Assembly (NCBI RefSeq): GCF_963921235.1
Contig: NC_086097.1
Span: 3,038,001 to 3,102,000 of the forward strand
Length of the DNA stretch: 64,000 nucleotides
Direction of reading: 5' to 3'
From: Mobula hypostoma
Taxonomy: Eukaryota
The notes under the pieces were generated by a model. The model was not told the origin of the DNA. It made no database searches and saw only the letters and a list, made by a program, of their open reading frames with translations. The translations under genes and the position numbers were made by a program. Positions 28,187-64,000 of this stretch are shown here, one piece after another; within the stretch, counting starts at the first letter, position 1, and each line of letters begins with the position of its first letter.

Positions 28187-28286
28187 GTAAACATTTGTTA
28201 AGTCACATATGTAGTCTATTTTACTGGCTTTCCTAACTTTTAGTGTATTAAGTGTACTTATGGAATGTTTGATAATGTTTTTGTAG

Positions 28287-32002: not shown

Positions 32003-32009
32003 GTAAGAT

Positions 32010-36112: not shown

Positions 36113-36151
36113 ACCTTTTATTGACATTTTATTAATTTTTTTCTTGGTCAG

Positions 36152-37352: not shown

Positions 37353-37695
37353 TATATACATACTGTGACCACTAGGAGACACACTGAACAACTGCATATA
37401 CATACTGTGACCACTAGGGGACACACTGAACAAACTGCATATGCACACTGTGACCACTGGGGGACACACTGAACAACTGCATATACACACTGTGACCACT
37501 AGGGGACACACTGAACAAACTGCATATGCACACTGTGACCACTAGGGGACACACTGAACAAACTGCATGTGCACACTGTGACCACTGGGGGACACACTGA
37601 ACAACTGCATATACACACTGTGACCACTAGGGGACACACTGAACAACTGCATATACACACTGTGACCACTGGGGGACACACTGAACAACTGCATA
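37353..37695. repeat. Minisatellite, 42-43 bp x 8
   Basis: Unit actgtgaccact(a/g)ggggacacactgaaca(a)actgcatatacac. Confidence 0.95.
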
Positions 37696-38510: not shown

Positions 38511-38853
38511 TCATCATCATATGCTGTGTCGGATGATGTAGGTGGTCATAATCTTTTGACCATGATTGTTCTTGGTAAATTTTTGTGACAGAAATGGATT
38601 GCCGTTTCCTCCTCCTGTGCAGTGTCTTTACTAAACAGGTGACTCCAGCCATTATCAATACTCTTCAGAGATTGCCTGCCTGGAGTCAGTGGTCGCATAA
38701 CCAGTGATATGCACCAGCTGCACCATGGTTTCATGTGACCCTGATCGGGGGCTAAGCAGGTGCTACACCTTGCCCAAGGGTGGCCTACAGGCTAGAGAAG
38801 GGAAGGAGTGCCTTACACCTCCTTTGGCAGAGATGTATCTCCACCCTGCCACC
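38511..38853 (-). mobile_element. SINE-like element with an RTE/BovA-type 3' module
   Basis: - strand ggaggaggaaacggcaatcca motif and (gat)n tail; related fragment at 22231-23148 is split by the L1. Confidence 0.55.
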
Positions 38854-39240
38854 GGGTCTTCTGGTTATGCCATTATTTTCCTTGTTGTGCATGTTGCCTG
38901 CAATTAGATACAGCTCCAATAATTTGTAATTTTAATACATTTCTATAATTTAAAACCCTCCCTCTCACTTTGTTGTCATTTTGTTTTATCGACTTATTTT
39001 ACTTACACTACGTTGCTGCTTGCTTTGTGCTTTCTCGTGCTGAGTTCCCTCTGAGATTCCCATTTCTTTGCCATGCTAGTTTATACTCATCCCAGTGACC
39101 ATAGTGCACACCAGCCTGGCAAGATTCTGCTGACGGATAAGCTGTCTTGACTTTTACAGTGCTGGGCGCCTCAAAAGCCTTAGAATCCTCAATCTCTTTA
39201 TTTTATTTATTCAGGGATATAGCATGGAACAGGCCCTCAG

Positions 39241-40112
39241 AAACGAGAAAATCTGCAGATATTGGAATCTTCACCTTCCCCCTCCCCCCTTTCTGCTTTC
39301 CGTAGGGATCACTCCCTACGTGACTCCCGTGTCCACTCATCCCTCCCCACCAATCTCCCTCCTGGCACTTATCTTTTCAAGCAGAACAAGTGCTACACCT
39401 GCCCCTACACCTCCTCCCTCACTATCATTTGGGGTCCCAAACAGTCCTTCCAAGTGAGGCGACACTTCACCTGTGAATCTGTTGGGGTCACATACTGTGT
39501 CCGGTGCTCGCGGTGTGGCCTCTTGTATACCGATTGGGATCTGACATAGATTGGGAGATGCTCCGTCGAGCACCTATGCTTCATCTGCCAGAAGAAGTGG
39601 GATCTCCTAGTGGCCATCCATTTTAATTCCACTTCCCAATCCCATTCAGATATGTCCATCCATGGCCTCCTCCACTGTTGTGATGAGGCCACACTTAGGT
39701 TGCAGGAACAACACGTTATATTCTGTTTGGATAGCCTCCAACCTGATGGCATGAACATTGATTTCTATAGCTTCCGGTATTGTCCACCCCCCCTCACCAT
39801 TTCCCATCCCTGTTTCCCTCTCTTACCTTACCTCCTTGCCTGCCCATCACCTCCCTCTGGTGCTTCTCCCCCTTTACTTTCTTCAAAGGCCTTCTGTTCT
39901 CTTCCCCCTTCTCCAGCCTTGTGTCTCTTTCACCAATCAACTTCCCAGCTCTTTACTTCATCCCTCCCCCTCCCAATTTCACCTATCACTCTCCCCTTCC
40001 CCAGCTTTTAAACTACTCTGCATCATTTTTTCTCCAGTCCTGCCGAAGGGTCTCGGCCCAAAACGTAGACTGTACTTTTTGCATGGGGATGCTGCCTGGT
40101 CTGCTGAGTTCC
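39241..40112 (+). mobile_element. Penelope-like (Neptune-type) element: Cys linker, GIY-YIG endonuclease and terminal repeat; inserted in a SINE
   Basis: AFRRDHSLRD...CYTC...FTCESVGVTYCVRCSRCGLLY..., then HFN...LQPDGMNIDF. Short inverted terminus at 39241-39269. SINE halves at ~39200-39240 and 40113-40375. Confidence 0.9.
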
Positions 40113-40774
40113 GTGGAGCAGCCCCTCCTGGCCCAACGAGCTGTACCACTCAGAATCCCCCGATTTAACACCAGTTTAATCACAGGACAATTGACAATGA
40201 CCCGTTAACCTACTAACTGGTATGTCATTGGACTGTGGGAGGAAACCTGAGCAGCTGGTGGAAACCCACACAATCAGGAGGACATACAAACTCCTTACAG
40301 ACAGCATTGGAATTGAACCCTGACCTCTGACGTCCAAGGCTGTAATCATGTCGTGCTAGCTGCGACACTGCCTTAATGCCCCATCCTCTCCCATGCATAA
40401 TTTTAGCAGCCCCTCCAATTACATCTAGTTTCTGGTCCTCCTGAATTCTTTGCATTTGGCATCTTTTCAGAAGCTGTGGCTTTCTCTTGGAGTTGATTAT
40501 TTAAGTGTTGGTGGCCAGTCCAATGATCAGAACTCTTAACTTTTGGAATTCCTCTTCTTAAGGCTGTTCTCTTTACATCATTGTTGGGATATAGTTGGGA
40601 TCACAGAGACATGGTAGGCTATGTTTCTATGTTTCTTTAAGGCCATCTTTAAAGCAGAGCTTTTGCTCATTTGCCTTAATAGCTCAATGTCAGTTTCTGT
40701 TTACAAATATTGCAAAGTTATGTTCATTTCTGTTACACAACGATGCTAAAAAACTAATTCAGGCTATAATTCAG

Positions 40775-41365
40775 TAATAGCCCAGATTACTGCAATCCAC
40801 TTTGTACTGGCCTTCCAAAGCAATCTATTGACAAAGTTCAACTCATTCAGAACTCCGCTGCTAAACTTTTAACCGAAACCAAGAGGAGGGAGCATATCAC
40901 TCCTGTCCTAACTACTCTGCATTGGCTTCTTGTATGTTTTAGACTTGATTTTAAAATTATTTTACTTATTTTTTAAGCTGTTAATGGTCTGGGACTGGAG
41001 TACATTGCAGAATCATTTTCGCTTCATAATCCTGCTCAAGCTCTCAGGTCTTCTTCCGCCGGTCTCTTAAATTTAAACGATCTCCTTCAAAAGATAATTG
41101 GCAGGTCAGCTTTTTTGAACTGCCCTCCCAAATTATAAAACTCAAAACCTAAAACTATAAGGGATGCAGACTTAGTTGACACTTTTAAACACCAGCTCAA
41201 AACCTATTTATTTAACCTTGCTTTTACCAAACATCTTTATGTGTTTTATTTTTTGTTTATTTTTATTTTTAATATTTTTATTATTTTCATGTTTCTATTT
41301 TTATCCCATTGTAAAGGACCTTAAACTACAGCATCCGTATGAAAAGTTCTCTGTAAGTAATAATA
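40775..41365 (+). mobile_element. L2 LINE 3' fragment
   Basis: Hand translation DYCN...QLIQNSAAKLL...EHITPVLTTLHWL...DFKI. Confidence 0.85.
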
Positions 41366-41374
41366 ATCAACTTT

Positions 41375-44300
41375 GCAGGCAGATTGGCTCGAGTTGTTCG
41401 GGAGGGTTTAAACTAATTTGGCAGAGGGATGGGAACTGGAGTGATAGTGCTGAGGATGAGGTAGCTGGTTTACAAACAAGAGCGATGTGCAGGAAGACTC
41501 CTAGCAAGGAGAGGCCGATAGTAGAGCAAAATTGCAGTCAACAGGATGAGGTGCAATGTAAAAGGTGGTCAGATTTGGAAAGGGTGAACACAGGACTGAA
41601 GGTGTTTGAATGCGCGTAGTATCTGGAATAAGGTAGGTGGTCTTGAGCACAGTTACAGATTGGCATGTGTGATGCGGTAGGCATCACTGAATCATGACTG
41701 AAAGAAGGTTACAGCTGGGAACTTAATGTCCAAGGATACACATTGTATTGAAAGGATAGGCAGAAAGGCAAAGAGGGTGATGTTGCTCTGCTGGTTAAAC
41801 ATAATTAAATCAATTTATTAGAAAGAGGTGACATCGGGTCAGAAGGTGTTGAATCATTGTGGACAGAACTCAGAAACTGCAATGGTAAAAAGAATCTGAT
41901 AGGAGTTGTATACAAACCTCCGAACAGTAGTAAGGATGTGGCCAACAAACTACAACAGGAAATAGAAAATGCACGCCAAAAGGGCAATGTTCAATAGTCA
42001 TGGGGATTTCAATATGCAGGTGGTTTGGGAAAATTGAGTTGGTGTTGGTTCCCAAGAGGGGAAATTTCAAGCAACACGCACAAAATGCTGGAAGAACCCA
42101 GCAGGCCAGGGAACATCTATGGAAAAGAGTATAGTTGTCATTTTGGGCCAAGACCCTTCATCACGACTGGCCCAAAACTTTTCCGTAGTTGCTGCCTGCT
42201 CTGCAGAGTCCCTCCAACATTTTGTAGGTGTTGCTTGGATTGCCAGAATCTGAAGATTTCCTCTTGTTTGTGAGAGGAAACTTCCAGAATGCCTATGAGA
42301 TGGGTTTTCGGAGCTACTTGTGGTTGAACCTGCTACGGGATCAGCTCTTCTGGATTGGGTGTTGTACAGTGAAATGGAATTGATTAGAAAGCTTAAGATG
42401 AAAGAACCCTTGCAGGAAAGTGATCATAACATGATCAAATGCACCCTGAAATTTGAAAAGGAGAAGCTAAAGTTCAGTGTATTAGTATTACAGTGGAGTC
42501 AAGGGGATTACAGAGCCAAGAGAGAAGACCTGGCCAGAATTGATTGGAAAAGAACACTGGCAGGGATGATGGCAAAGCAGCAATGGCTGGAATTTCTGGA
42601 AGCAATTTGGAAGGCACAAGGTCTATACATCCCAAAGAGGAAGAGGTATTCTAAAGGACACAACCATGGCTAACAAGAGAAGTCAAAGCCAACATAAAAG
42701 CCAGACAGAGGGCATATGATAGAACAAAAATCAGTGGGAAGTTAGTGAATTGGGAAGCCTTTAAAAACCACAGAAGGTCACTAAAAAGTCACTAAGAAGG
42801 AAAAGATGGGATACGAAAGTAAGCTAGTCAATAATATTAAAGAGGATACCAAGAAAAAAGGATCTGGTGCTTTTCCGGCATCTATGATGGACAAATTCTT
42901 CTGGAGCTTCCAGCAGGGTACAAGTATTGATTTTAACTGATTTCAGTGACAAAGTCTGCCATCGCCCTGATGAAGGTGGCAGAATTCGTCATCAAAATGT
43001 CAGTTTAAACTAATACCTGTACCCAGTTGGAAACCCGAGAAGGGTTTTTTTTTCATGATACCAAAAGTTTCTTCAGAGACATAAAGTGTAAAAGATAGGC
43101 GAGGGTGGATATCAGTCTGCTGGAAAATGATGCTGGAGAGGTAGTATTGAGGGACAAGGAAGTGGCGGATGAACTGAATAAGTATTTAGCATCAGTCTTT
43201 ATTGTGGAAGATGCTAGCAGTATGATGGAAGTCCCAGGTGTCATGGCCATGAAGTATGTGAAGTTATCATTACTGGAGAGAAGGGTCTTGGGAAACTGAA
43301 AGGTCTGAAGGTAGGTAAGTCAACTCAGGCAGATGATGTGCACCCTAGGATTCTGAAAGATGTGGATGAGAGGTTGTGGAGGCATTAGTAATAATCTTTC
43401 AGGAATCATGAGATGCTGGAATGGTTCCGGAAGACTGGAAAATTGCAAAAAGGAAAGAGGTAGAAGAAAGTAAATTATAGGCAAGTTAGTCTGACCTCAG
43501 TGGTTGGGAAGATGTTGGAATCGATTATTGAGGATGAGGTCTCTGAGTACTCAGAGGCACACAATAAAATAGGCCGTAGTCAGCATGGTTTCCTCAAGGG
43601 AAAATCTTGCCTGACAAATATGTTGGAATTCTTTGATAAAAAAACAACAAGCAAGATAGAGAAAGGAGAATTAGTTGATATTGTGTACTTGGATTTTCAG
43701 AAGGCCTTTGACAAGGTACCACACATGAGGCTGCTTTACAAACTACAAGCCCATGGTATTACAGGAAAGATTCTAGCATGGATAAAGCAGTGGCTGATTG
43801 GTAGGAAGCGAAGTGTGGAAATAAGGAACTGATTCTTTTTACGTTATCTGTCAATGATTTTGATAGAATTGATGGCTTTGTTGCAAAGTTTGCAGATAAT
43901 ACAAAGATAGGTGGAGGGGCAGGTAGTTTTGAGGAAGTAGAGAGGGTACAGAAGGACTTAGGTTTGGAGAAGGGGCAAGAAAGTGGCAGATGGAATACAG
44001 TGTCGGGAAGTGACGATTATGCATTTCTGTAGAAGAAATAAAAGGATAGACTATTTTCTATGTGGAGAGAAAACAAAAAAAAACTGAGGTGCAAAGGGAC
44101 TTGGGAGTTCTTGTGCAGGATTCCCTAAAGGTTAATTTGCAGGTTGAACTTGTAGTGTGGAAGGCAAATGCACTGTTAGTGTTTATTTGAAGAGGACCAG
44201 AAAATAAAAGTGAGGATGTAATGTTGAGACTTTAGAAAGCACTGGTGAGGCCTCACTTGGAGTATTCTGAGCAGTTTTGGTCCCCTTAGAGAACTGGAGA

Positions 44301-49269: not shown

Positions 49270-51175
49270 CTTTAAAGTTCAAAGTAAATATTATCAAAGT
49301 ACCCAGTTGTCACATTATACAATTCTGAGATTAATTTTCTGCGGGCATTCGCAGGAGAGGCAATAAACGTTATAGAATCAATGAAAGACCGGCCCCAGCA
49401 GGACAGACAAACAACAATAATAATCATAAATAAATAGCAATAAATAATGAGATCATGAGATGACGAGACCTTCAAAGTGAGTCTGTAGGTTATGGGAACG
49501 GTTCATTGTTGTGGTGAGTGGAGTTATTCCGTCTACTTCAAGAGCCTGATGCTGAGGGGTGATAACTGTACCTGAACCTGGTGGTGTGGGTCCTGAGAAA
49601 CCTGCACCTACTTTCGAATGGCAGCAGTGAGAAGAGAGCATGGCCTGATGACGAGGGTCCTTAGTGATGGATGCTGCTTTCATGCGACAGTCCTCTATGT
49701 CGGTGTGCCTCATGGTCGGGAGGGCTTTACCTGTAATGGACTGAGCCATATTTAAAACAAGAGACAATCAGCAGATGCTGGAAATCCAGGCAACACACAC
49801 AAAATGCTGGAGGAACTCAGCAGGCCAGGCAGCTTCTAGAAAAAAAGTACAGTCGATGTTTCAGGCCAAGATCCTTTGGCAGGACCGTATACTGTCCACC
49901 ATACATCTATGAAAGTTTGTCAAAGGTTTAGATGACATAAGAAAGTAATGGCACATATGTGCTGGGCACAGGACAGGTCCTCTGAAGCGATGACTCTGTA
50001 CTGAGCAATTTTAAGTTGCTGATCCTCTCCACCTCTGATCCCCCCAGTGCGGACTGGCTCATGGACCTCTGGTTTCCTCCTTCTGAAGGCAGTAATCAGC
50101 TCTTTGGGCTTGCTGACATTACCTAAGTCATTGTTGTTACAGCACCACTCAACCATATTTTCAATCTCTCTCCTTTCCTATATGCTGTCTTACATCTTTC
50201 AGATACATGAGGAGTAAAAATCTTTACGTTACATCTCCATCTAAATGTGCAATGTGCAATCATAGTAATTTATAATAAGTAGAACAGTCTATGTAATATA
50301 GACTACACTCAAATCAGCGTCAATTCATCAGTCTGATGGTCTGGTGGAAGAAGCTGTCCCGGAGCCTGTTGGTCCTGGCTTTTATACTGCGGTAGCAGCT
50401 GGAATAGATTGTGGTTGGGGTGACTCGGGTCCCCAATGATCCTACGGGCCCTTTTTACACACCTGTCTTTGTAAATGTCCTGAATGCTCTCAATTGTGCC
50501 CCTGTAGAAAGTTCTTAGGATTTGGGGGTTCATACCAAATTTCCTCAACTGTCTGAGGTGGAAGAGGTGCTATTTTCACCACACAGCTGGTGTGTACAGA
50601 TGATGTGAGGTCCTTGGTGACGTGAATGCAGAGGAACTTACAACTGTTTATCCTCTCAAACCCAGATCCATTGGTGTCAATAGAGGGTAGCCCTTCTCCA
50701 TTCCTCCTGTAATCCACCACCAGCTGCTTTTTTTTTGCAACATTAAGGGAGAGGCTGTTTTCTTGACACCACTTTGTCAGAGAGATGACTTCTTCCCTGT
50801 AGGCCACCTCATTATTGTTTGAGATAAGGCCAATCAATGTAGTGTGGTCGGCATATTTAATTAGCAGATTAGAGTTGTGGGTGGCGATACAGTCATGGGT
50901 ATACAGGGAGTAAAGGAGGGGACTCAGTACGCAGCCCTGAGGGGCTCCTGTGTTGAAAGTCAGAGGGTTGGAGGTGAGGGAGCCCAATTTTACAACCTGC
51001 TGGCGATCTGACAGGAAGTCCAGGATCCAGCTGCACAAGGCAGGGTCAACGCTGAGGTCTCTGAGCTTCTTGTCGAGCCCGGATGGAACTATGGTGTTGA
51101 ATGCTGAACTGTAGTCCAAGAACAGCATTCTCACATTAGCCTATGACAGTGGTGTTGTCAGCAAACTTGAATATG
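49270..51175 (-). mobile_element. Two nested Rex1-type LINE fragments with a Penelope terminus at ~49755-49885
   Basis: ORF 50490-51134 [14 protein letters not shown]...GAPQGCVLSPLLYSLYT...YADHT. Confidence 0.85.
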
Positions 51176-53267
51176 GCACAGGACAAGCTTGAATAAGCTG
51201 TGCTTACATTCTAAGGAACAAAATCTGAACCTATTCAGTCTTTCCTTATAACTCAGGCCCTTCAGACCTGGCAACATCCTTGTAAATATTCTCGTTACTC
51301 ATTCAACCTTATTGACATCTTTCCTGCAGGTAGGTGACCAAAACTGCACACAATACTCTAAATTAGGCCTCACCAATGTCTTATACAACTTCAGCATAAC
51401 ATTCCATCTCCTGTACTCAATACATTGATTTATGAAGGCCAATATGCCAAAAGCTTTCTTTACAACCCTACCTTCCTGTGAAACCACTTTCAATGAATTA
51501 TATGGACCTGTATTCCCAGATCCCTTTGTTCTACCACACTCCTCGGTGCCTGCCATTGACTGTATAAGACAGCGTAGAAACCTGGTTGGTTCTACTGAAG
51601 CGCAACACCTTACACTTACTTGCATTAGGTTCCATTTGCCATTTTTCAGCCCATTTTTCCAGCTGATGCAAATCCCTCTGCAAGCTATGAAAGCCTTCTT
51701 CACTGTTCACTACACCTCCAATCTTCATGTCATCTGCAAATTTGCTGATCTAGTTAACAATGTTATCATCCAGATCATTGATAGAAATGATTCTTCTTCA
51801 GGTTTGTCCATCGAAATCCGATGACGATGTCCACTCCTTTAATGGTGAGATCTTCAATGACTATACAGTTCTATCCTGGACCCACAAGCTCTATTGCAGG
51901 TGGGACATGTATATGTGATAGTGGTGGCAACCGTGGCTGCATTTCTCCTGGCTCTCTTCTGCTGTCTTTTGGTTGTTCTTTCCATCTCCAGAATACGAAC
52001 CCCGTCCCTACACAGCTGTCGCCAAGTGGTACGGTCAGCAGCAACATCCTCCAGGTCCTCAGGTCTGATCTTGCACTTCCTTAAAGCATTCTTCATCTGA
52101 TCCTTATAGCGCTTCTTCAGCCCTCCAGCTGAGCGTTGACCATGATGGAGCTGGCTGTATAACCCTCTGCGGAGTAGCCGACATGGGGGCATCCTTATCA
52201 CGTGCCCCAGCCACTGCAGCTGACGCTGGGTGATCACGGCCTCAATACTCCTGCAGTTGGTCTTTACAAGTATTTCGGTGTGAGGCACCCGCTCACGGCA
52301 GGTAATTCCCAGGATGCGCTGGAGGCAGCTTATGTGGAAGCGCTCCAAGGACTTGATGTGACGGCTGTAGGTTACCCAAGCTTCACAGCTATAAAGGAGG
52401 GTGGTGACACAGACCGCTTGGTATACAGCGACCTTTGTGGGGGGACAAAGGCTCCTGTTCTGAAAGACTCTATGCCGAAGTCTCCTAAAGGCAGCTGATG
52501 CCTGTTTAATGCGGCTCTGGATGTCGTCGTCAATGCCGCTATCCTCAGAGAGAATACTCCCCAGATATTTGAAAGATGGCACTACTGACAGCTTTTCATC
52601 ACCAACAGTGAAGGCAGGTAGAGTGGGTGGGACACTGGTACTCGGTTGGCAAACCACTTCTGTCTCGGTGGTATTGACAGTCAGCCCCATCCTGCTGTAC
52701 GCTCTCACCACCACGGCAAGAACAGTCTGAAGATCTTCCGGAGTGTGGGCCACAAGAGCACAGTCGTCTGCATACTGCAGCTCCAGGACCCACTCTCTAC
52801 GGAGTTTGGTGGTTGCGTGGAGCCTCCTGATGTCAAAGAGGTTGCCATCTAATCTGATGTCCACTGCCACACCGCTGCTGTCTTCAGTCTCGTTGTGGAG
52901 AAGCTTGGTAACACACAAGAGGAAAATGTTAAAGAGCACTGGCGCTAGCACACACCCCTGCCTCACCCCTGTGCGTACCAGGAAGGGCTCGGACTCTTGT
53001 CCTCCTATGGTCACCTGAGCAGTCATCCCATCGTGGAACTGGCAGAGGATGTTAACAAATTTATTGGGACAGCCAAACCTGAGGAGGACATCCCATAAGA
53101 GCTCTCTTTGCACAGTATCGAATGCTTTGGAGAGGTCGACAAAGGCCATAAACAGGTCCTGATGTCGCTCCCGGCACTTTTCCTGAAGCTGCCAGGCTTT
53201 GAAGATCATGTCGATTGCGCTCCTGTTCTTCCTAAATCCACACTGCGATTCAGGCAGCATTGACTCA

Positions 53268-54547
53268 ATAGACAATAGACAATAGGTGCAAGAGTAGGCC
53301 ATTCGGCCCTTCGAGCCAGCACCACCATTCACTGTGATCATGACTGATCATCCACAATCAGTATCCAGTTCCTGCCTTATCCCCATAACCTTTGATTCCG
53401 CTATCTTTAAGAGCTCTATCCATCTCTTTTTTGAAAGCATCCAGAGACTTGGCCTCCACAGCCTTCTGGGGCAGAGCATTCCATATATCCACCACTCTCT
53501 GGGTGAAAAAGTTTTTCCTCAACTCCATTTCTAAATGGCCTACCCCTAATTCTTAAACTGTGGCCTCTGGTTCTGGACTCACCCATCAGCGGGAACATGC
53601 TTCCTGCCTGCAGCGTGTCCAATCCCTTAATAATCTTATATGTTTCAATAGGATCCCCTCTTAGCCTTCTAAATTCCAGAGTATACAAGCCCAGTTGCTC
53701 CAATCTTTCGACATATGACAGTCCCGCTATCCCGGGAATTAACCTTGTGAACCTATGCTGCACTCCCTCAATAGCAAGAATGTCCCGCCTCAAATTTGGA
53801 GACAAAACTGCACATAGTACTCCAGGTGTTGTCTCACCAGGGCCCTGTACAGCTGCAGAAGGATCTCTTTGCTCTTATACTCAATTCCCCTTGTTATGAA
53901 GCCCAACATGCCATTAGCTTTCTTCACTGCCTGCTGTACTTGCATGCTTGCTTTCAGTGACTGATGTACAAGAACATCTAGATCTCGTCGTGCTTCCCCT
54001 TTTCCTAACTTGACTCCATTTAGACAATAATCTGCCTTCCCGTTCTTACCACCAAAGTGGATAACCTCACATTTATCCACATTAAACTGCATCTGCCATG
54101 CATCTGCCCACTCACCCAGCCTGTCCAAGTCACCCTGCATTCTCATAACATCCTCCATTTCACACTGCCACCCAGCTTTGTGCCATCGGCAAATTTGCTA
54201 ATGTTACTTTTAATTCCCTCATCTAAATCATTAATATATATTGTAAACAGCTGCAGTCCCAGCACTGAACCCTGTGGTACCCCACTGGTCACCGCCTGCC
54301 ATTCCAAAAGGGACCCATTAATCGCTACTCTTTGTTTTCTGTCAGCCAGCCAATTTTCAATCCTTGTCAGTACTCTGCCTCCAATACCATGTGCCCTAAT
54401 TTTGCCCACTAATATCCTATGTGGGACTTTATCAAAGGCTTTCTGAAAGTCCAGGACAACTACACCCACTGGCTCTCCCTTGTCCATTTTCATAGTTACA
54501 TCCTCAAAAAATTCCAGAAGATTAGTCAAGCACGATATCCCCTTCGT
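53268..54547 (-). mobile_element. CR1 3' fragment nested in the RTE
   Basis: SCLTNLLEFF...FADGTKLGG; (ctattgt)n tail. Confidence 0.92.
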
Positions 54548-56215
54548 AAGCATCACCTTAGCCAGGACCTTTCCAGCAACAGAAAGGAGTGATATGCCCC
54601 TACTATTGCTGCAGATGGCCTTGTCACCCTTGTTCTTATAAATGACAACGATGTTTGCATTTCTCCATTGCTGTGGGACGTTCTCATCAGTCCGGGCCTT
54701 GGTGATGTACTGGTAGAGGGTGTGCATACACATGTACCCTCCGTTCTTCAGTAACTCAGCAGGGATACTGTCAGTGCCAGGGGACTTGTTGTTCTTAAGG
54801 GAATGGACAGCTGATAGAACTTCCTGGAAGGTTGGTGGTAGACTGAGGTCGTGGATAGGAGGAAGTTCAGGCAGTTCGTCCAGGATGGTGGGGTCTGCGT
54901 CAAAGTCCTGATTAAGCGGGGTGTTAAAATGCTCAGCCCACCTCAGCAGAATGGTATTCTGATTCTTCAGAAACCATCTACTGTTTTCAGAGGAGTAACG
55001 CATATATTTATTGGGCCGTAGATGGTTTTGACAGCATTGTAAAAATTATGCATGTTATTATTATCGGCAAAGGACTGGATTTCATGTGTCTTTTCAGTCC
55101 AGCACTCATTTTGTATGGCCCGTATTGCCTTTTGCACTTTCCTCCGAGCTGCCTGCCAATGCTACCTGATGCTGGTGGATGATGGGTTGTCTGAAGTTGC
55201 CCGGTGTGCTTTGTGCAAGTCCCTAAGCAAGTTGTGGATGGTGTCTGAGTTATCATCAAACCAGTCTTGGTGGTTCCTGCTGTTATGGCCGATGGATTGG
55301 GCTGCTGCCTCATAGAGCGCAGAGCTGATACAGGTCCACTGTTGTTCATTGGTATTTTCTGAGCTCAGACAAGGTCCCAGCTCCCTTAGTTTCTCAGCTG
55401 GGATGCGTCGAAACTCACTTCTTGCTTCTGTGTTTCTCATGTGGTTGCAATTTAGCCGCTTTTTATCGGGTTTTTGCAGCTGCAAGGGGGGGAGGGGGGA
55501 CGCACTTTCATATGGAGCTTGGCCACAATCATACAGTGGTCAGTCCAGCACTCTGCACCTCTCATGGCACGGGTGATAAGAACATCCTTGATGTCACTCA
55601 CAGTGATGAAGTCGATCATGTGCCAATGTTTAGAGTGAGGGTGCATCCAAAAGGTCTTATATTTTGCCTTCTGCTGGAAGATGATGTTGGTTATGGTAAG
55701 GTTATGCTCAGAGCAAAGAGTAAGTAACCTCATGCCATTTGCATTCACCTTGCCAATACCATGCCTACCTAGCACTCCACTCCATATCCTGTTGTTCTGT
55801 CCCACCCTAGCGTTGAAGTCCCCAAGCAAAAGGATCTTATCATTCTTAGGGATCTGGCAAAGAGCTTCATCCAATATCTGATAAAAGCCTTCCTTGGCCT
55901 CATTCTCAGATGGCAAAGTTGGTGCATAGGCACTGAGAAGCATGGCATAACGTTTCTTTGCCAGGGGGATACGGAGGGTCATCAGTCTTTCACTAATGCC
56001 AACAGGTGTTTCTGTGAGACTTGGTAGAGGGAAAACCTTTCCAGAAGAAGGTGTAACCCATCCCTTCCTCTGTTAAAGAGCCTTCTTCCGGTAGCCTGGT
56101 CTCACTCAGGCAGCAATGTCGATGTTGTAGCACCTCAGCTCAGCAGCGATCAAGGCTGTTCTCCGGTGAGGTCTGTCAGAGATGCCACACCAGTCCAGGA
56201 GAGTCCTCACATTCC

Positions 56216-57457
56216 TTTCTTTTTCAATCTTTCTATTAATTTCAGCATCATAGACATTACAGAAGATAGGTACAGAGAAATTGGGATTACATTATTGATA
56301 AATAGTTTATACAATTATGAGCTCAATTGACACATAATTAATGAACCTCCCAAAATCTCACAAAGTACAAATATAATATAGGAAAATATAAAGTGAAAAT
56401 ATAAAAATATCATGAAAAAAAAATTATACCCCAAAAGGAAAAAATCTAACCCAATTAAAAGAAAACTAAACTAAACTAAAAAAAGAAAAGAAAAAGAATG
56501 GGCTATTATGATACCTCAGATAAGACCATTAGTGTCGTTAACTCCGCTCCTCTCCCCGAATATGGAGTAACAAAATAGAATTGGAAAGGGTCAAATTACA
56601 TCATATGAAAGTATTGAATAAATGGTCTCCAAATCTCTTCAAATTTAATAGAAGGGTTGTAAATGACGCTTCTAATTTTTTCTAAATTTAAGCAAGACAT
56701 AGTTTGAGAAAACCATTGAAATGTAGTAGGAGAAATCTTTACAATTCAATAATATGGATCTTTTAGCCGTTAGTATAACAAAAACAATCATCCGACAAGC
56801 TGAGGGGGTCAGATGATGTTGTTCTATCGTTGGTAAATCAAAGATAGGATGAGGTTGTAAATCAATATCAAAACAGTTGAAATAATATCAAAGATGTCAT
56901 CCCAGTATTTCTTCAGCAAAGGACATGACCAAAACGTATGAGTTAATGAGGCTGTCTCAGAATTACATCTATCACATACAGGATTGATATGAGAGTAGTA
57001 ACGAGCTAATTTATCCTTGGATATGAGTCCTGTGCACTACTTTAAACATAGAGACGAAGAATTAACTAACAGAAATTTTTTTTTGCCATTTCTCTATAGG
57101 TAAAGTAAGCTTAAATTCCCTTTCCCAGTCGTTCTTAATTGAATTTGATACATCTGGATTTATTTTCATAATCATATTATAAATAATTGCTATTGAATCT
57201 TTCTGAAAAGGATTTAAATCTAGAATTCTTTCCATTATATCCGATGAATATGAAATCGGAAAGGTACTAAGAACAGTATTTAAAAAGTTTCAAATCTGTA
57301 AGTATCTAAAGAAATGGGATCTAGGTAGATTATGTTTATTAGATAATTGTTCAAAAGACGTAAAACATTTATCCAAAAATAAATCAGAAAAACATATCAT
57401 ACCTTTAGTTTTCCAGCCTAGATAGGCTTGATCCAAAAAAGAGGATTGAAAGAAAAA
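56216..57457 (-). mobile_element. L1/Tx1-clade 3' fragment nested in the RTE
   Basis: AT-rich, CDRC...THTFWSC knuckle, T-rich tail. 14-bp TSD agtcct(c/t)acattcc at 56202 and 57458. Confidence 0.88.
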
Positions 57458-58183
57458 AGTCCTTACATTCCATGTTGCCAGTTTTAGGTTGTATGGTTTC
57501 TTATTTCGACTGCAGCAGTGGAATAAACCGATTGGCGCGGTAACCTATCCAGGTGAGTGATTGAATGGGCAATTTTTAGGCCACCTTTTCTAGGCCCTTC
57601 CCCAATTGGGGTGAGCACTGCGGTCCCTAAATAGGGCTGCTCAGTCACACAGGGGTCTGCCGAGAACAGCTGCCACTCAGTCCCAGCTGCTAGCGACCAA
57701 ATACCCTGTGCCGCTGCCATGCAGGGTTCTGACTAGGAGCTCCCAGTCCATTCGTACCTGCTCCCATTGCCAGACACCCCATCACTGTCAGACTTCAACC
57801 ATATGTAATGTCCAGGTATTGTTCACCGTAGTCAGAGGTGGAGACCTGCGCAAGGAAAATTTTAAAGTGCCGCAGGGGGTGCGCCATCCCCAGTAGCACT
57901 ATCTTCACCATGATGAGGTAAATCCCGGTGACAAGGGTGATCCCAGGACAATCGGTCCCACATGTTGGCTGCAGGAGGCTGCCGGGTCCTTAGTCTGTTA
58001 AGGCCCGCCTATTGCGCGCCGCCAGTGCATTGCTTTTCTGTCAGGGTGTGCTCCCTTAGCCTTGTCTCAATAGACTTACCACAAGGCAGTGGGGCTATTT
58101 GCCCATAGCTGGGACAGTGGTTGACGGGCACCAGGGTGGGCCTGCACACCACGTCTCTGGGGCCCACTGCAGCTCTGAGATCC

Positions 58184-58468
58184 CCTGTAGTTTAGCCTGG
58201 GTCTGTAACATACCCAGTTTCCGTGTGTGGCTCCGAGGAGGCACTGCAGGAGTCTTGGTGGTGGAGAGGCTCTATACTGGCAGGAGGAGGCTTACAGACT
58301 CGGCTCCTCTTTTCACCCTCTGTTAAGAAGGCGAGCCAGCGTGAATGGCTGTAAGCAGAGAGTAGCAAGCAGAGAGCACTATGTGGCATGCAGCATGCAC
58401 TAACTACAAACACTACTGCACTAGGCACTTCACACGCACCCTGTGAGCAAATACTCCTACCCACACAC
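58184..58468 (-). ncRNA. Predicted HDV-like ribozyme at the RTE 5' end
   Basis: P1 GTGTGTG/CACACAC, P2 CCTGCAGT/ACTACAGG, P3 GCC/AGC, L3 TCCTCGG, P1.1 CC/GG, P4 CTGGGT/ACCCAG, J4/2 GCTAA, all in the correct order. Confidence 0.78.
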
Positions 58469-58939
58469 AAAACAGAGATGATAAACAACAGACCCAGCAC
58501 TGATCCCTGTGGCACTCCATTAGTCACAGGCCTCCAGTACGAGAGGGCAGCCCTCTACCACCTCCCTCTGGCTTCTGCCACAAAGTCAATGTCTAATCCA
58601 ATTTACCACCTCGTATTAGTAACAGATGCAAAATGCTGGAGGGACTCAGCAGGCCAGGTCAGGCAGCATCTATGGAAAAGAGTGCAGTTGACATTTTGGG
58701 CCAAGACCTTTCAGCAGTACAAAAGGGCTACTTCATCTTGAATGCTGAGTGACTCAACCTTCTTGACCAACCTACCATGTGGGGCCTTGTTAACATCCAT
58801 ATAGAGAATATCCATTGCCTTGCCTTCATCCACTTTCTTGGTAACTTCCTTGAAAGCTTCCTATAAGATTGGGTAGATATGACCTACCATGCTGACTATC
58901 CTTAATCAGTTCATGTCTGTCCAAATACTTACTTATGCT

Positions 58940-59710
58940 TCTGGTCAAGATGGGCCTGCATACAACGCTGCTTTGGTCGACTTCTGGATTGATTATGAAA
59001 CCACTTCTTTTATGTCCTTGACATTTGTTTCTCGTTGTGGATGTGACTCTGGAATTGTTGGAGCTTGTGATTTGCAATTTGGAGGTCTTCCAGCAATCTG
59101 CTGTCTCTGAGAGGATTCCAGGAAGCAGAGGCAGGGTGCCCAAACCTCAGGGCGAGAAGGCTGTAATGTCTGTGGTGCATAAGCTGATGTTTGACTCTAT
59201 TTCACCGATTAAAGAGACAAGGGAGATTGAAACATTGAGGTGACTGCAGAAGGTGAGCGCTGGCCGCCTGTTTTTTGATCGCTGGTGAGATCGGTTTCCT
59301 GCTGGAGAAGGAAGACTGCCTTTTGATCGCTGGGGGAATCGATCAGCTATGGAGAGAAGACGCTGCCTTTGGATCACTGGGGGATCACTCTGCTACAGAG
59401 GGGAAAGGCCGGGAGCATGCTACCCAGGTTTTCAGCATTTTGGATAGAAACTTGGACTCTAGACTTTTTTCAGTCTTACAGTTTTTATATTCTGTGTTTT
59501 TCGACCTATCTTTCTCATTTTTTTTGTGCATGGGAGAGGGGGATTATGGGGTTGATGTGCGTGTTCTGTTTTTTGTTCTTTTTTTTTGTGTGGGGAGGAG
59601 GAATTTGGTGGTTGATAATTGTATCCCATTCTTTTTTTTTATTGATTTCATTGCTATCTAAAGAAGAATTTCAGAATTGTATGTACTTTGATAATAGATG
59701 AACCTTTGAT
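58940..59710 (+). mobile_element. Non-coding retroposon with a Rex1-like tail, inserted in CR1
   Basis: Interrupts the CR1; starts near caagatgg and ends tactttgataatagatgaacctttga. Confidence 0.5.
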
Positions 59711-61807
59711 ATAGCCAGTCCCTTAGAATACCTTCCAATAACTTATCCACATCTGATAACAGACTCACCAGCTGATAATTTCCTGGTTTCTGTATAGAGC
59801 ATTTCTTAACAGCGGAACACGATCGGCTATCCTCCTTCCTCTAGCAACTCTCCTGTCGCTAAAGATGATTTAAATATGTCTGCTAGGAAAACTTCAAACC
59901 TTCTTTTAGCGCTCCTGGTTTCTTTCTCAAGTGTTCTCTTGAATTTCTTATTTTCCGTGAGTGCACCATTTGTTCCTACCTGCCGAGACCACCTGCACTT
60001 GTTGTTTTTACTTTTGGTTCTGACAGACACATGCAAACTTTGTACTGTTAAAGTTTCACTTCTGAAGGCCTCCCTCCCACTTACCATGACACCTTTGCCA
60101 GAAAGCAGCTTGTTCCAATCTACACTTGATGAAGGGTTTCGGCCTGAAACATCGACTAATGTTTTCAACTGATGCTGACTGACCTACTGAGTTCCTCCAG
60201 CGCATTGTGAGTGTTCCTTTGACAACAGCATCTGCAGATTATTTTGTGTTTCCAATCTATACTTGCCAGATCTTTTCTGATGCCATCACAATTGGCCTTT
60301 TTCTAATTTAGAATCTCAACTCATGCACCAGACCAATTTTTTTTGCATATTTACTTCGAAACTAATTGCATTTTGGTCATTAGGTACAAGTGTTCCCCTA
60401 CACAAACTTCTGTCACCTGTCCTGTCCCATTCCCAGCAGATCCAGTATCGTACACACTCTCATTGGGACTTCTATGTACTGATGAAGGAATCTTTCCTGA
60501 ATACATTTGACAAACTTTATCCCAATTAGTCCTTTTACAGTCAATATGTGGAAAGTTGAAATTACCTACTATAACAACCTTATGTTTATAACAGTCTGCG
60601 ATCTCTCTACAAATTTCTTCCTCTAAATCACACAGACTGTTGGGTGGTCTGTAATATTGCCCTATTAATCAGGCCATAGCTTTCTTATGTTTTAGTCCCA
60701 CCCATAACCTCTCTAGTCTGTCTTGACTGAACACTGCCATGACATTTTCCGCGACGAGTCACACCTCTCCTTCTCTTTTCATCCTTCCCGTTTTGTCATG
60801 TCTAAAACAACGGAACCCCGGAATATTGAGCTGCCAGTCCTGTCCCTCCTACAACCGCTCACTAATAGCGACAATACCAAGATTCCAGGTGTTGATCCAT
60901 GCCCTGAGATCATCTGCCTTCCCTGCAATGCTTGCATTGAAATATGTGCAGCTTAAGGCACTAGTCGCATCAGACTTAATCTTTTGATTCTTGACTTTTA
61001 TCTGAGGGCTTACCAACATTTGCTCTCAGAACCACTCCTCTAACTGTCTTTACACTCTGGTTCCCATCCCCCTGCAAATCCAGTTTAAACATCACCACGC
61101 AGTATTAGCAAATCTTTCCACTAAGATATCCGTGCCCTTCCAGTACAGGTGCAGATGGTCCCTTCTGTATAGATCCCGCCTGATCTGGAAGAGAGCTCAA
61201 TGATCCAAAAACCTTATGCCCTCCCTCGTACACCAAATCCTGAGCCACATGATGAACTGGATGAACTACTTATTTCTGGCCTCACTAGCACATGGCACAG
61301 GTGGCAATCCTGAGATCACATCCCTGGAGATCCTGTCCTTTACCTTAACATCTAATTCCCTGAACTTACTTGCCACTTTTCATATCTACATCATTCATCA
61401 TGGACCATGGCCTCTGGCTATACACCCTGCAGAGGACTCAATCCAAGCTGTCCTGGACTCTGGCACCCAGGAGGCAACATACCATCTGGGAATCTTGTTC
61501 TCACAGAACCTCCTTTCTGTTCCCATAACTAACGAATCCCCTATCACCACAGCTTGTCTCTTTTCCCCCCTTCCCTTCTGAATTGTGGTCAGACTCAGCG
61601 CCAGAGAACTAACCTCTGTGACTTTCCTATGATAGGTCATTTCCCCCTCCCCCCCCAAAAGTATGCAAAGCAATATACTTGTGGTTGGGGGGGATGGCCA
61701 GAGGGGTGCTCTGCACTGACTACTTAACCCCTTTCCCCTACCTGACTGTCACCCAGTTTCCTGCGTCCTTCACCACGTGTGTAACTACAAACGTTTGTAC
61801 CTTTCTA

Positions 61808-63505
61808 TGATGATGATCTGTCTGTCTGTCTGTCTGTAAGGATAATGGAAATGCAGTGTGCACTCTGGGTCAGTCTGTTGAAGAGCTGCAACATCTGCTA
61901 TGGCTGTACTGTCCAATCTTGGAGCAGCAAGTCTTGCTGCAGTTTTTGCAGTGAATCTAGTGTCTGGCTTTGGGGGTGGTGATGTTGATGCTCTTGTACC
62001 TTTTGCTCGCTCCTCTTTACACCAGCATTGATGGTCTGTCTCCAGCTGCTGCAGTCTGCTGCCACGACTTCCCAGACTTTTTTGGTCAATGTCCCTTGCT
62101 TTCATGTTGCGCTTACAGACAGGGCTGGTCTTCCAGTAGGTCTGGTGCCGGTGGCGAGCTCTCTTTGGGGATCTGACCATCTTCCACACCCCTGATGTGA
62201 CCAGGCCATCCCAGGTGATGCAGAGTGAGGAGGGTGAACATGGTTGCGATGCCTGCTTGTTCTAAAACATCCTTGTTTGGGACATGATCCTGCCATGCGA
62301 TGCCAGGATTGTTCCGTGGAGGTGGAAGGTGTTTAGGCTGTGCTCTTGGTGAAGGTAGATCGTTCATGTTTCACTGCCGTACAGGAGCGTACTGAGCACA
62401 CAGGCCTGGTTGACCTTCATCTTGGTGTTCTTGATTAACATGAGTTCACCCAGACTCTTGTTGCCAGCCGAGACATCATTGTTGCTGCTCTGCCGATCCA
62501 CTTGTTGAGCTTGACATTGAAGGAAAGGGTGCTTGAGACGAGGGAGCCAAGGTAGGTGAACTTATCCACTATGTTGAGGGTGCAGCCTCCCATGCAGATG
62601 TTTGGTTTGTTGTTGACATCTTGGCACATGGTGTTTGTCTTCTTGAAGCTGATAGTCAAACCAAAGTCTGCAAGTGAGTGTGAGGCAGTTGATGAGTCTC
62701 AGGAGGGCTTCCTCTGGGTGTGATGTCAGGGCGGCGTTGTCTGCAAACAGCAGCTCCCTTATCAGTACCAGTCACATCTTGGCCTTTGCTCTGAGATGTG
62801 CAAGGTTGAACAGCCTGCCATCACTTCTGGTGTGGAGGTGTACGTTGTCTTCTGATGAACTGAAGGCATGGGACAGTAGCAGGGAGAAAAAGCTGCTAAA
62901 GAACATAGGAACCAGTATGCAGCCCTGCTTCACACAGCTCTTGATTGGGAAGGGACTACATGTCTTCATGAAAAGATATGATTATCCCGAGGAACCTGTG
63001 AGGACATCCAATCTTTTGAACGGTGTGAAGAAGCCCTTTCTGCTGACCTGGCCTTTGTCAGGTAAATGAAGGTGACGTACAGTGGTTGTCCCTGCTCTCG
63101 GCATTTCTCTTGGAGTTGGTGTAGTGAGAAGATCTTGTCAATTGTTGACCGTCCCACTCGGAACCCACACAGTGATTTTGGGTTATCGAGCAGCCAGTGT
63201 CTGTAGATGGTTGAGTAGCATGTGAGGGAACACCTTGCCAATGATGTTGAGAAGTGAGGTGCCTTGGTATCTTATTGCAGTCATCACGGTCACATTTGTA
63301 CTTGTAGAGGTGGAAGATGTTGGAGTTGTGCATGTCCTGGGGTACTGACCCTTCCTCCCAATATTGGCAGAGAAGTTCATGCAAGTGCTGTAGCAGACCA
63401 TACTTCTTACCAGCCTTTATGACCTCAGGTGTAATGCCGTCTTTTCCAGGAGCCTTACCACTTGCTAGGCAATGGTTTGCTTTACTGAGTTTGTAAATAG
63501 AGGGC
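61808..63505 (-). mobile_element. Second, older RTE LINE fragment
   Basis: GKAPGKDGITPE, CGFRVGRSTID, VKQGCIL, FTYLGS, IAWQDHVPN. Confidence 0.85.
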
Positions 63506-63507
63506 AG

Positions 63508-64000
63508 CATGAGAGAGAAGTTGGTTGGAATTGATTGGAAAAGAACACTGGCAGGGATGATGGCAGAGCAGCAATTGCTGGAAGTTCTGAAAGTAATCCA
63601 GAAAGCACAGGATATCTACATCCAAAAGAGGAAGAAGTATTCTAAAGGAAAGATGACACAACCGTGGCTAACAAAAGAAGAGGGCATATAATAGAGCAAG
63701 AATTATTGGGAAGTTAGAGGATTAACAAGCTTTTAAAAGCCAATGGAAGGTAACTAAAGAAGTTATTAAGACGGTAAAGATGGAATGCAAAAGTAAGCTG
63801 GCTAATAATATTAAAGAGGTTACCAAAAGTTTATTCAGATAAATAAAGTGTAAAAGTGAGGTGAGAGTAGATACTGGACTGCTGGAAAATGATGCTGGAG
63901 AGGTAGTAATGGGGGACAACAAAATGATGGATGAATTAATTAAGTATTTTGCATTAGTCTTCACTAGCAGTATGGTGGAAGTTCCAGGTGTCAGAGGGCA
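63508..64000 (+). mobile_element. CR1 fragment running off the window
   Basis: IDWKRTLAG...QPWLT, as at 42530-43250. Confidence 0.85.

What the first reader, a model, noticed from the sequence alone, without database searches (positions are those of the whole stretch)
58184..58468. HDV-like self-cleaving ribozyme marking the 5' end of a full-length RTE retrotransposon
Seen on the - strand, in nested double-pseudoknot order: P1 5' GTGTGTG (58468-58462); a 211-nt J1/2; P2 5' CCTGCAGT (58250-58243); P3 GCC; L3 TCCTCGG; P3' AGC; P1 3' CACACAC (58229-58223); GG (P1.1 with the CC of L3); P4 CTGGGT/ACCCAG; J4/2 GCTAA with the candidate catalytic C at 58195; P2 3' ACTACAGG (58191-58184). The predicted cut, 5' of G58468, lies 3 nt from the independently located TSD (58472-58481), so the element starts almost exactly where the ribozyme would cleave. 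Established: HDV-like ribozymes process the 5' ends of R2, RTE and L1Tc elements. Inference: this fish RTE family releases itself from read-through transcripts in the same way. I do not know whether it has been described for this lineage. One C.A mismatch in each of P2 and P3 suggests this copy has decayed. It is antisense to UNC79.
Basis: partly seen in the sequence, partly recalled or inferred. Interest (0 to 1): 0.88.

Follow-up and report, generated by a model that had tools for sequence, protein, structure and literature searches.

The report
HDV-like ribozyme heading a fish RTE
A decayed copy of an RTE-type jumping gene begins with a self-cleaving RNA fold of the hepatitis delta virus type, and related elements from other sources keep the same fold through matching base changes, so the motif is real but belongs to a kind already known.

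Summary
Every strand sits at the stated coordinates.

- **Chance.** At the candidate's own tolerances the 67-nt core is not beyond chance (50 of 150 shuffles). The comparative evidence is what decides.
- **Insertion.** The RTE copy interrupts an L2-like element. It has a 10-bp target-site duplication, and 3 extra bases precede G58468.
- **Own family.** Sequencing contigs of three organisms show a multicopy family. Its majority letters restore P3 and extend P4.
- **Relatives.** A metagenome relative (L001) is homologous from exactly G58468. It has perfect P2 and P3 and a G.U pair at the cleavage site.
- **Model search.** A covariance model finds the core on the sense strand upstream of the ORF in 21 of 80 related RTE loci.
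- **Covariation.** 16 of 17 pairs of P2, P3 and P4 show compensatory changes. 10 of 16 loci have a perfect G-initiated P1 partner upstream, against a permuted mean of 1.4.
- **Rfam.** A compact relative matches the Rfam HDV ribozyme below threshold.

This particular copy is mutated and dead. HDV-like ribozymes in RTE elements are already in print, so this is a new member of a known kind. No cleavage was tested.

The parts
58472..58481 (-). 5' copy of the target-site duplication (tcatctctgt), last bases of the interrupted L2-like element
   Evidence: L2 family continuation in loose ends at 58484 (table 7)
58469..58471 (-). 3 extra bases (ttt) between the target-site duplication and G1. They are not L2 sequence and are not conserved in L001.
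58462..58468 (-). P1 5' strand GTGTGTG. Predicted cleavage is 5' of G58468, which is also the first base of the RTE copy.
   Evidence: the centroid fold pairs it with 58223-58230
58251..58461 (-). J1/2, 211 nt. Its 3' half (about 58340-58276) forms a three-way junction conserved in 6 sequences.
   Evidence: 7-nt length polymorphism at 58381-58385 among family copies (table 4)
58243..58250 (-). P2 5' strand CCTGCAGT
58240..58242 (-). P3 5' strand GCC
58233..58239 (-). L3 TCCTCGG. Its CC pairs with GG 58222-58221 to form P1.1.
   Evidence: L3 starts TCC in 18 of 20 model hits; it lines up with the Rfam HDV consensus as printed
58230..58232 (-). P3 3' strand AGC. The family majority is GGC.
   Evidence: 58232 T>C on the + strand in all 4 runs
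58223..58229 (-). P1 3' strand CACACAC
58221..58222 (-). GG of P1.1
   Evidence: GG present in 16 of 20 hits
58197..58217 (-). P4 hairpin. In this copy it has lost the inner 3 pairs that the family majority and L001 keep.
   Evidence: (58209, 58204, 58202)
58192..58196 (-). J4/2 GCTAA, with the candidate catalytic C at 58195
   Evidence: (C-N-R-A in 20 of 20 hits)
58184..58191 (-). P2 3' strand ACTACAGG. A58188 is G in L001 and L002.
51791..58468 (-). The whole RTE-type copy, complete from end to end but dead. About 4.15 kb is its own sequence. It is interrupted at about 57458-56216 and about 54548-53267, carries stops and frameshifts, and ends in (GAA)3.
51781..51790 (-). 3' copy of the target-site duplication (tcatttctat). 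The L2-like element continues from here.
   Evidence: table 7
57575..57655 (-). Second conserved structured block of the 5' UTR, just upstream of the ORF start. It is not part of the ribozyme.

Best explanation
Positions 58184-58468 (- strand) are the mutated 5' end of an old, dead copy of an RTE-type non-LTR retrotransposon (one ORF with AP-endonuclease and reverse transcriptase). Its family carries an HDV-like self-cleaving ribozyme as its first ~285 nt.

Proposed mechanism:
- The element is transcribed as part of a longer RNA.
- The first 7 nt (P1 5' strand) pair with a strand about 240 nt downstream.
- The 211-nt J1/2 folds into its own domain.
- P2, P3, P1.1 and P4 complete the nested double pseudoknot.
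- The cytosine in the G-C-N-A-A joiner catalyses scission 5' of G1.
- The freed RNA then starts at G1. It is translated and reverse-transcribed, so new full-length copies begin at G1, give or take a few untemplated bases.

Shown here: the fold's strands, their conservation and covariation in relatives, and the coincidence of P1 with element 5' ends. Inferred: catalysis itself, co-transcription, and any role in translation.

This copy carries G>A changes in P3 and P2, has lost the P4 extension and has a broken ORF. It is a relic and is probably a poor or inactive ribozyme.
For: - **Insertion boundary.** The target-site duplication and the L2 continuity put the copy's start at 58468-58471.
- **Own family.** The 5' region is multicopy in runs of 3 organisms. 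In all 4 runs the majority letters differ from the window at 58232 (restoring P3) and at 58209, 58204 and 58202. Those three create the A-T, T.G and C-G extension of P4 also seen in L001.
- **L001.** It is homologous from exactly 58468. Its core has a perfect 8-bp P2, a perfect P3 and a G.U pair at the cleavage site.
- **L002.** It changes the top P1 pair on both sides: GTGTGTT with AACACAT.
- **Model search.** Round 1 gave 20 hits at E<=1, 19 of them on the element's sense strand. 11 were loci not used to build the model. Round 2 gave 23 hits. 22 were sense-strand, meaning the window plus 21 of 80 loci, all upstream of the ORF.
- **Covariation of P2, P3 and P4.** 91.0% of cells pair, against 60.8% in shuffles (0 of 500 reach it) and 24-39% when partners are slid. 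16 of 17 pairs show changes on both sides.
- **P1.** 10 of 16 loci have a perfect G-initiated 7-nt partner within 350 nt upstream. With permuted strands the mean is 1.4 and the maximum 5 in 2000 trials. The same search downstream finds 1 of 16.
- **Core letters.** L3 fits T-[C/T]-C-N-N-G in 20 of 20 hits and the joiner fits C-N-R-A in 20 of 20.
- **Rfam.** The compact relative L051 (J1/2 of 9 nt) matches RF00094 HDV_ribozyme over the whole model at 36.4 bits, and RF02682 at 28.2 bits. These were the only two hits among 4227 families.
- **5' ends in other subfamilies.** Homology between L003, L046 and L006 begins at the predicted P1 strand.
Against: - No cleavage assay was run, and no run on record as RNA holds the stretch, so catalysis is inferred.
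- The window copy has no Rfam hit at E<=10.
- L051's Rfam hits are below the gathering scores (36.4 against 50; 28.2 against 44).
- The loose core descriptor is common in shuffles (50 of 150).
- The J1/2 fold is no more stable than shuffles (z = -0.83). The same holds for the whole 291 nt (z = 0.03).
- G1 pairs with C here, not with U.
- The P2 mismatch is not among the 41 listed majority differences of the window's own family (126 rows not shown). Its restoration is therefore seen only in the relatives L001 and L002.
- 6 of 16 loci lack a perfect P1 partner.
- 4 of 20 hits lack the GG.
- L016 and L017 have a central C.A mismatch in P3.
- L016, L017 and L045 share 3 bases upstream of the G1 that their best P1 register predicts.
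- By my hand count's table, 58 of the 80 loci have 600 nt or more upstream of the ORF match. 37 of those 58 gave no core hit at E<=1.
- The alignment used for the pair counts was fitted to the model, which leans towards the structure.
Confidence: 0.85

Rival explanations
1. A conserved HDV-shaped 5' UTR structure that no longer cleaves. It would serve only as a protein-binding or translation-initiation platform, and element 5' ends would be set by something else, such as an internal promoter.
For: No catalysis was shown. The J1/2 has a conserved three-way junction and a second conserved structured block lies upstream of the ORF, so the UTR clearly has structural roles. PMC6765202 (passages) reports protein binding and IRES-like roles for the R2 ribozyme fold. 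G1-C instead of G.U occurs in the window, L003 and L032.
Against: The letters needed for catalysis are the most conserved ones: the C-N-R-A joiner in 20 of 20 hits, and L3 starting TCC in 18 of 20. The P1 5' strand sits at the very start of the homology in independent copies. Cleavage explains that placement; a purely structural role does not.
Confidence: 0.1
2. A chance resemblance: a GT-rich run at an insertion junction that happens to match a CA-rich run beside an accidental stem set.
For: The loose core occurs in 50 of 150 shuffles. P1 is a simple GT/CA repeat. There is no Rfam hit. The fold energy is ordinary.
Against: Covariation in all four helices across relatives, restoration of P3 and P4 in the family majority, 0 strict-core hits in 438 Mb of random sequence, model hits only upstream of ORFs on the sense strand apart from one inverted copy, and an Rfam HDV match for L051.
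Confidence: 0.02
3. This very copy is still an active ribozyme that cuts transcripts of the locus.
For: All strands are present. P1 is 7 Watson-Crick pairs, and the centroid fold of 291 nt forms P1 and P4.
Against: It carries mismatches in the 3-bp P3 and in P2, has lost the P4 extension, and has G-C at the cleavage-site pair. The element is interrupted twice and its ORF is broken.
Confidence: 0.2

Closest known systems
HDV-like ribozymes at the 5' ends of RTE and Baggins non-LTR retrotransposons (Ruminski et al. 2011, J Biol Chem). The paper itself was not held. It is known here through its citation in PMC3774820 and the description in PMC6765202.
   Same: Same element type (single-ORF endonuclease plus reverse transcriptase), same position at the extreme 5' end, same fold, and the same proposed job of freeing the element from a co-transcript.
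   Different: The host lineage here is fish plus many aquatic metagenome contigs. J1/2 is long (about 100-330 nt in most members found here) and has a conserved three-way junction. I could not read the original paper, so I cannot say whether any of its RTE examples belong to this subfamily or come from vertebrates.
R2 element HDV-like ribozyme (PMC3774820, passages; PMC6765202, passages)
   Same: A 5'-terminal HDV-like double pseudoknot with a large insertion; the ribozyme occupies the first ~184 nt of R2. It sets the element's 5' end, and the G in L3 is conserved.
   Different: R2 is site-specific in 28S rDNA, uses a different endonuclease, and often takes its P1 strand from 28S sequence. Here insertion is not site-specific (a target-site duplication inside an L2 copy) and both P1 strands belong to the element.
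Rfam RF00094 HDV_ribozyme and RF02682 HDV-F-prausnitzii
   Same: The relative L051 aligns to the whole of both models, with P1, P3, L3, P4 and the G-C-N-A-A joiner in register. The window core shares the L3 and joiner letters of the printed consensus.
   Different: Scores are below the gathering thresholds (36.4 against 50; 28.2 against 44). The window copy gives no hit at all because 211 nt separate the P1 5' strand from the core.
L1Tc HDV-like ribozyme of Trypanosoma cruzi (PMC3185411, abstract seen in the listing)
   Same: An HDV-like ribozyme at the RNA 5' end of a LINE, acting co-transcriptionally.
   Different: A compact 77-nt ribozyme in an L1/ingi-clade element of a protist.
Twister-variant ribozymes at the 5' end of the RTE element Perere-3 in Schistosoma mansoni (PMC8501958, passages)
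   Same: An RTE-clade element with a 5'-terminal self-cleaving ribozyme that defines the 5' end of new copies.
   Different: A different ribozyme class (twister, not HDV-like).

Membership tests
HDV-like self-cleaving ribozymes | Strand order P1 - J1/2 - P2 - P3 - L3 - P3' - P1' - P1.1 - P4 - J4/2 - P2' (nested double pseudoknot) | tested here: met
   The window has all strands in that order. The same order holds in L001, L002, L017, L047, L049, L003, L032, L006 and L051.
HDV-like self-cleaving ribozymes | The helices are real, meaning supported by compensatory changes | tested here: met
   P2, P3 and P4: 16 of 17 pairs have changes on both sides, and 91.0% of cells pair against 60.8% in shuffles. 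P1: 10 of 16 loci have a perfect partner against a permuted mean of 1.4. Caveat: the alignment was fitted to the model.
HDV-like self-cleaving ribozymes | G at +1 forming a G.U pair at the base of P1 (feature recalled; the Rfam consensus pairs G with u) | tested here: inconclusive
   G1 is present in the window but pairs with C58223. It is G.U in L001, L002, L017, L047, L049, L006 and L051, and G-C in L003 and L032.
HDV-like self-cleaving ribozymes | P1.1: two C-G pairs between L3 and the GG that follows P1' | tested here: met
   Window: CC 58238-58237 and GG 58222-58221. L3 starts TCC in 18 of 20 model hits, and GG is present in 16 of 20.
HDV-like self-cleaving ribozymes | Catalytic cytosine in J4/2 (C-N-R-A just before P2') | tested here: met
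   Window: G-C-T-A-A at 58196-58192. The C-N-R-A motif is present in 20 of 20 hits and aligns to the GGCuAA of RF00094 in L051.
HDV-like self-cleaving ribozymes | Match to a curated Rfam model at its gathering score | tested here: not met
   Window: no hit at E<=10. Relative L051: RF00094 at 36.4 bits (gathering score 50) and RF02682 at 28.2 bits (gathering score 44), both over the whole model. The long J1/2 is outside what these models allow.
HDV-like self-cleaving ribozymes | Site-specific self-scission giving a 5'-OH and a 2',3'-cyclic phosphate | not testable with these tools
   No biochemical tool is available, and no run on record as RNA holds the stretch.
RTE-type non-LTR retrotransposon | A single ORF with an N-terminal AP-type endonuclease and a reverse transcriptase | tested here: met
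   Pfam Exo_endo_phos_2 and RVT_1 hit the window's ORF pieces. The RT ORF piece of the window (51854-53347) is 73% identical to the ~1100-aa relative P0121, which carries PF03372, PF14529 and PF00078.
RTE-type non-LTR retrotransposon | Short 3' UTR ending in a short tandem repeat, flanked by a target-site duplication | tested here: met
   (GAA)3 at 51791-51799 followed by the duplication. L001 ends in (CAAG)n. The clade name RTE itself was not tested by phylogeny.

The most novel reading that the evidence does not exclude
This RTE lineage is widespread in teleosts and in aquatic metagenome contigs. It carries a modular 5' leader with three parts: an HDV-like ribozyme; a long J1/2 holding a conserved three-way junction; and, about 500 nt further on, a second block conserved at 72-86% nucleotide identity between elements whose proteins are only ~45% identical. 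On this reading the leader both cuts the element out of host transcripts and recruits the element's protein or the ribosome to an uncapped 5'-OH RNA. That would give a vertebrate system in which ribozyme-dependent retrotransposition and cap-independent translation can be tested together.
Probability: 0.3. Interest if true: 0.6.

Novelty: new member of a known kind. Interest (0 to 1): 0.52.

Why it matters
Outside R2 and the mammalian CPEB3 intron, HDV-like ribozymes have rarely been tied to abundant vertebrate repeats in the papers I could search. Here one heads a multicopy fish LINE family and its many aquatic relatives.

The set of 22 sense-strand sequences gives a ready covariation data set for an HDV-like variant with a 100-330-nt structured J1/2. 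It explains why full-length copies of this family start where they do. It also shows that Rfam-type scans miss such members, because the P1 strand lies far from the core. For genome annotation, the motif marks true full-length 5' ends of this RTE lineage.

Tried and rejected
- **Own genome.** No whole genome is held for this window, so copies could not be collected from it.
- **Second copy in the window.** blastn of 57401-58700 against the window found no second copy of the RTE 5' region.
- **Exact pattern scan.** A 22-nt core pattern searched in metagenome contigs gave 0 matches.
- **Earlier findings of this scan.** Look-ups by sequence, by words and by place returned nothing.
- **Sequencing runs.** No RNA holder is listed. 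Run X15 is only guessed to be RNA and is kept as contigs, so it says nothing about transcript ends.
- **Alternative P2 partner.** CTGCAG at 58172-58167 could pair with the palindromic P2 5' strand. I rejected it because the family majority has A at 58171 (- strand), which destroys it, and because it would displace the joiner.
- **P4 changes.** I first read the majority changes at 58202, 58204 and 58209 as breaking P4. Comparison with L001 showed they build a 3-bp extension above a bulged T.
- **J1/2 stability.** It is not stabler than shuffles. Only the comparative fold supports a domain.
- **Papers not held.** Ruminski 2011, Webb and Luptak 2011 and Webb 2009 were not available. The species and J1/2 lengths of the published RTE ribozymes could therefore not be compared, and their supplements may bear on novelty.
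- **Not tested.** 'Antisense to UNC79' was not tested.

Full report
**What is in the sequence.**
- P1 is GTGTGTG (58468-58462) with CACACAC (58229-58223).
- P2 is CCTGCAGT (58250-58243) with ACTACAGG (58191-58184). It has one C.A mismatch and can be lengthened by two pairs.
- P3 is GCC with AGC and has one C.A mismatch.
- L3 is TCCTCGG, followed later by GG, a P4 hairpin, and G-C-T-A-A with C58195.
- J1/2 is 211 nt.
- The pair at the predicted cleavage site is G-C, not G.U.

**Is the motif alone beyond chance?** No. A descriptor with the candidate's own tolerances finds only this site in the window. The same core turns up in 50 of 150 dinucleotide shuffles, mean 0.44 per window. A stricter core that requires the L3 letters TCCTCG gave 0 hits in 438 Mb of Markov-random sequence, but that criterion was chosen after seeing the site. 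Rfam gives no HDV-family hit at E<=10, either over 50000-64000 or over 58170-58480 alone. Folding energies of J1/2 and of the whole 291 nt are ordinary (z = -0.83 and 0.03), although the centroid of the 291-nt fold does form P1 and P4. The case therefore rests on context and relatives.

**The element and its boundary.** Downstream on the - strand lie pieces of one ORF with an AP-type endonuclease and a reverse transcriptase. The RT piece (51854-53347) is 73% identical to a ~1100-aa relative, P0121.

Aligned to the intact relative L001, the copy runs 58468-57459, 56215-54549 and 53266-51804. It is therefore complete from end to end. Two later insertions interrupt it, an AT-rich repeat of about 1.24 kb and an L2-like fragment of about 1.28 kb, and it carries stops and frameshifts. 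It ends in (GAA)3 at 51791.

The copy sits inside an L2-like reverse-transcriptase fragment. The L2 reading continues from 58482 to 51790. The L2 family's own continuation, read from loose ends of sequencing contigs at 58484 (table 7), matches the sequence that follows the RTE's 3' end. The target-site duplication is tcatctctgt (58481-58472) and tcatttctat (51790-51781), each copy one change away from the L2 family's reading. Three bases (ttt, 58471-58469) lie between the duplication and G58468.

**The window's own family.** Twenty runs hold part of 57500-58700, and none is on record as RNA. Contigs of four runs were laid at 80% likeness or more. The runs came from three coded organisms, and one run is only guessed to be RNA.
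- The RTE 5' region is multicopy, and the L2 flank is about 100 times deeper from 58472 upward.
- One contig ends at 58468. Others stop matching at 58466 and 58461 and run on for 197 and about 1000 letters unlike the window.
- Among the 41 listed majority differences (126 more not shown), four fall in the core.
- 58232 (- strand A to G, all four runs) makes P3 GCC/GGC.
- 58209, 58204 and 58202 create three further P4 pairs above a bulged T.
- No listed difference touches either P1 strand, L3, the GG or the joiner.
- The P2 mismatch is not among the listed rows.

**Relatives.** Protein searches show the ORF is 64-86% identical to teleost proteins and to many products on 3-5-kb contigs. An alignment of 11 full-length products fetched 80 metagenome loci.
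- **L001.** blastn of the window's 5' region gives 81.6% identity to L001, starting exactly at 58468 = L001:49. Its core is CCTGCAGT GCC TCCTCGT GGC CACACAT GG ... GCTAA ACTGCAGG, with a perfect P2, a perfect P3 and a G.U pair at the cleavage site.
- **L002.** It has G at the window's A58188 position and changes the top P1 pair on both sides: GTGTGTT with AACACAT. Its J1/2 is 331 nt.
- **More distant loci.** They keep the core with different helix sequences. L045 has P2 CTCACAGT/ACTGTGAG. L049 has P3 ACC/GGT. L059 has GCG/CGC and L051 has ACG/CGT.

**Model search and counts.** A covariance model of P2, P3 and P4 built from 8 sequences found 20 hits at E<=1 in the window plus 80 loci (430,614 bases, both strands). 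Nineteen were on the element's sense strand, and 11 were in loci not used for the model.

A second round found 23 hits. Twenty-two were sense-strand, meaning the window plus 21 loci, all upstream of the ORF match. The one antisense hit (L031) lies where an inverted neighbouring copy would fit. By my hand count's table, 58 loci have 600 nt or more upstream of the ORF match. So 21 of 58 show the core and 37 do not at this threshold.

On the 20-row alignment, 91.0% of cells pair. Shuffles give 60.8% (0 of 500 reach the observed value) and slid partners give 24-39%. Sixteen of 17 pairs have changes on both sides. This alignment was fitted to the model, which favours the structure.

For P1, which the model does not contain, 10 of 16 loci have a perfect G-initiated 7-nt partner within 350 nt upstream. 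Permuted strands give a mean of 1.4 and a maximum of 5 in 2000 trials. The same search downstream gives 1 of 16. J1/2 lengths are 9 nt (L051), about 100 (L032, L047, L049), 134 (L017), about 150 (L003, L006), about 210 (window, L001) and 331 (L002).

Core letters:
- L3 fits T-[C/T]-C-N-N-G in 20 of 20 hits.
- L3 starts TCC in 18 of 20.
- GG is present in 16 of 20.
- The joiner fits C-N-R-A in 20 of 20.

**Rfam on relatives.** In 17.6 kb from five loci, the only two hits among 4227 families are RF00094 HDV_ribozyme (36.4 bits, E = 0.037, model 1-89) and RF02682 (28.2 bits). Both fall on L051:87-160, with P1, P3, L3, P4 and the joiner in register. Both scores are below the gathering thresholds.

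**5' ends in other subfamilies.** L003, L046 and L006 lose mutual homology at the G-run that is the predicted P1 strand. L024 is simply cut 21 nt short of it. L016, L017 and L045 share GGTGTGGTG, which starts 3 nt before the G1 of the best P1 register, so the exact cut there is uncertain by 3 nt. L001 carries 2.9 tandem copies of a 20-nt unit resembling its own 5' end, and its 3' flank is also GT-rich.

**J1/2.** Its 3' half (window about 58340-58276) folds in six sequences into a three-way junction. Six of its 18 pairs change on both sides. Family copies differ by a 7-nt indel at 58381-58385. The sample is small, so this is suggestive only.

**Verdict.** The finding is a genuine HDV-like ribozyme fold at the 5' end of an RTE-type family, and here it is seen in a decayed, dead copy. 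Catalysis is inferred, not shown.

The kind is known. Passages of PMC3774820 and PMC6765202 state that RTE elements carry HDV-like ribozymes at their cleavage-defined 5' ends, citing Ruminski et al. 2011, which I could not read. Four full-text searches found no paper tying HDV-like ribozymes to teleost RTE elements. The library lacks most subscription papers, so this is weak evidence of novelty. I file it as a new member of a known kind, of moderate interest.

Noticed in passing
window 57575-57655 (- strand); e.g. L001:870-960, L003:758-872: A second conserved block of the RTE 5' UTR lies 70-100 nt upstream of the ORF start. blastn finds it at 72-86% identity in more than 40 of the 80 metagenome loci, although their proteins are only ~45% identical. 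A comparative fold of 10 sequences gives three hairpins with 23 pairs, 6 of them with compensatory changes. There is no Rfam hit. Its function is unknown.
   Followed up: partly
window 58134-58185 and 58238-58315: In run X9 (organism C) these two stretches have word depths of 51,000-95,000 and 26,000-43,000. The stretch between them has about 2,000-2,600, and the other runs show 750-6,000. A derived, highly amplified repeat may carry pieces of the RTE 5' region in that organism.
   Followed up: no
window 58082-58107: This 26-nt bin is about 3-7 times deeper than its neighbours in all four runs. It may be a short segment shared with another, more abundant repeat.
   Followed up: no
L001:1-58 and L001:4300-4378; L045:~200-240: L001 begins with 2.9 tandem copies of a 20-nt unit resembling the element's own first 20 nt, and its 3' flank is also GT-rich. 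L045 has two tandem GGTGTGGTGG units at its 5' end. This is either insertion into GT-rich minisatellites or reiteration of the 5' end during reverse transcription.
   Followed up: partly
window 56216-57458 and 53267-54548: Two later insertions interrupt the RTE. One is an AT-rich repeat of about 1.24 kb inside the start of the endonuclease coding region. The other is a fragment of about 1.28 kb bearing reverse-transcriptase motifs like those of the L2-like host element.
   Followed up: partly
L031:70-117 (- strand): This is the only antisense model hit. It is nearly identical to L032's core and lies upstream of L031's ORF, as if a second copy sits head-to-head with the first.
   Followed up: no
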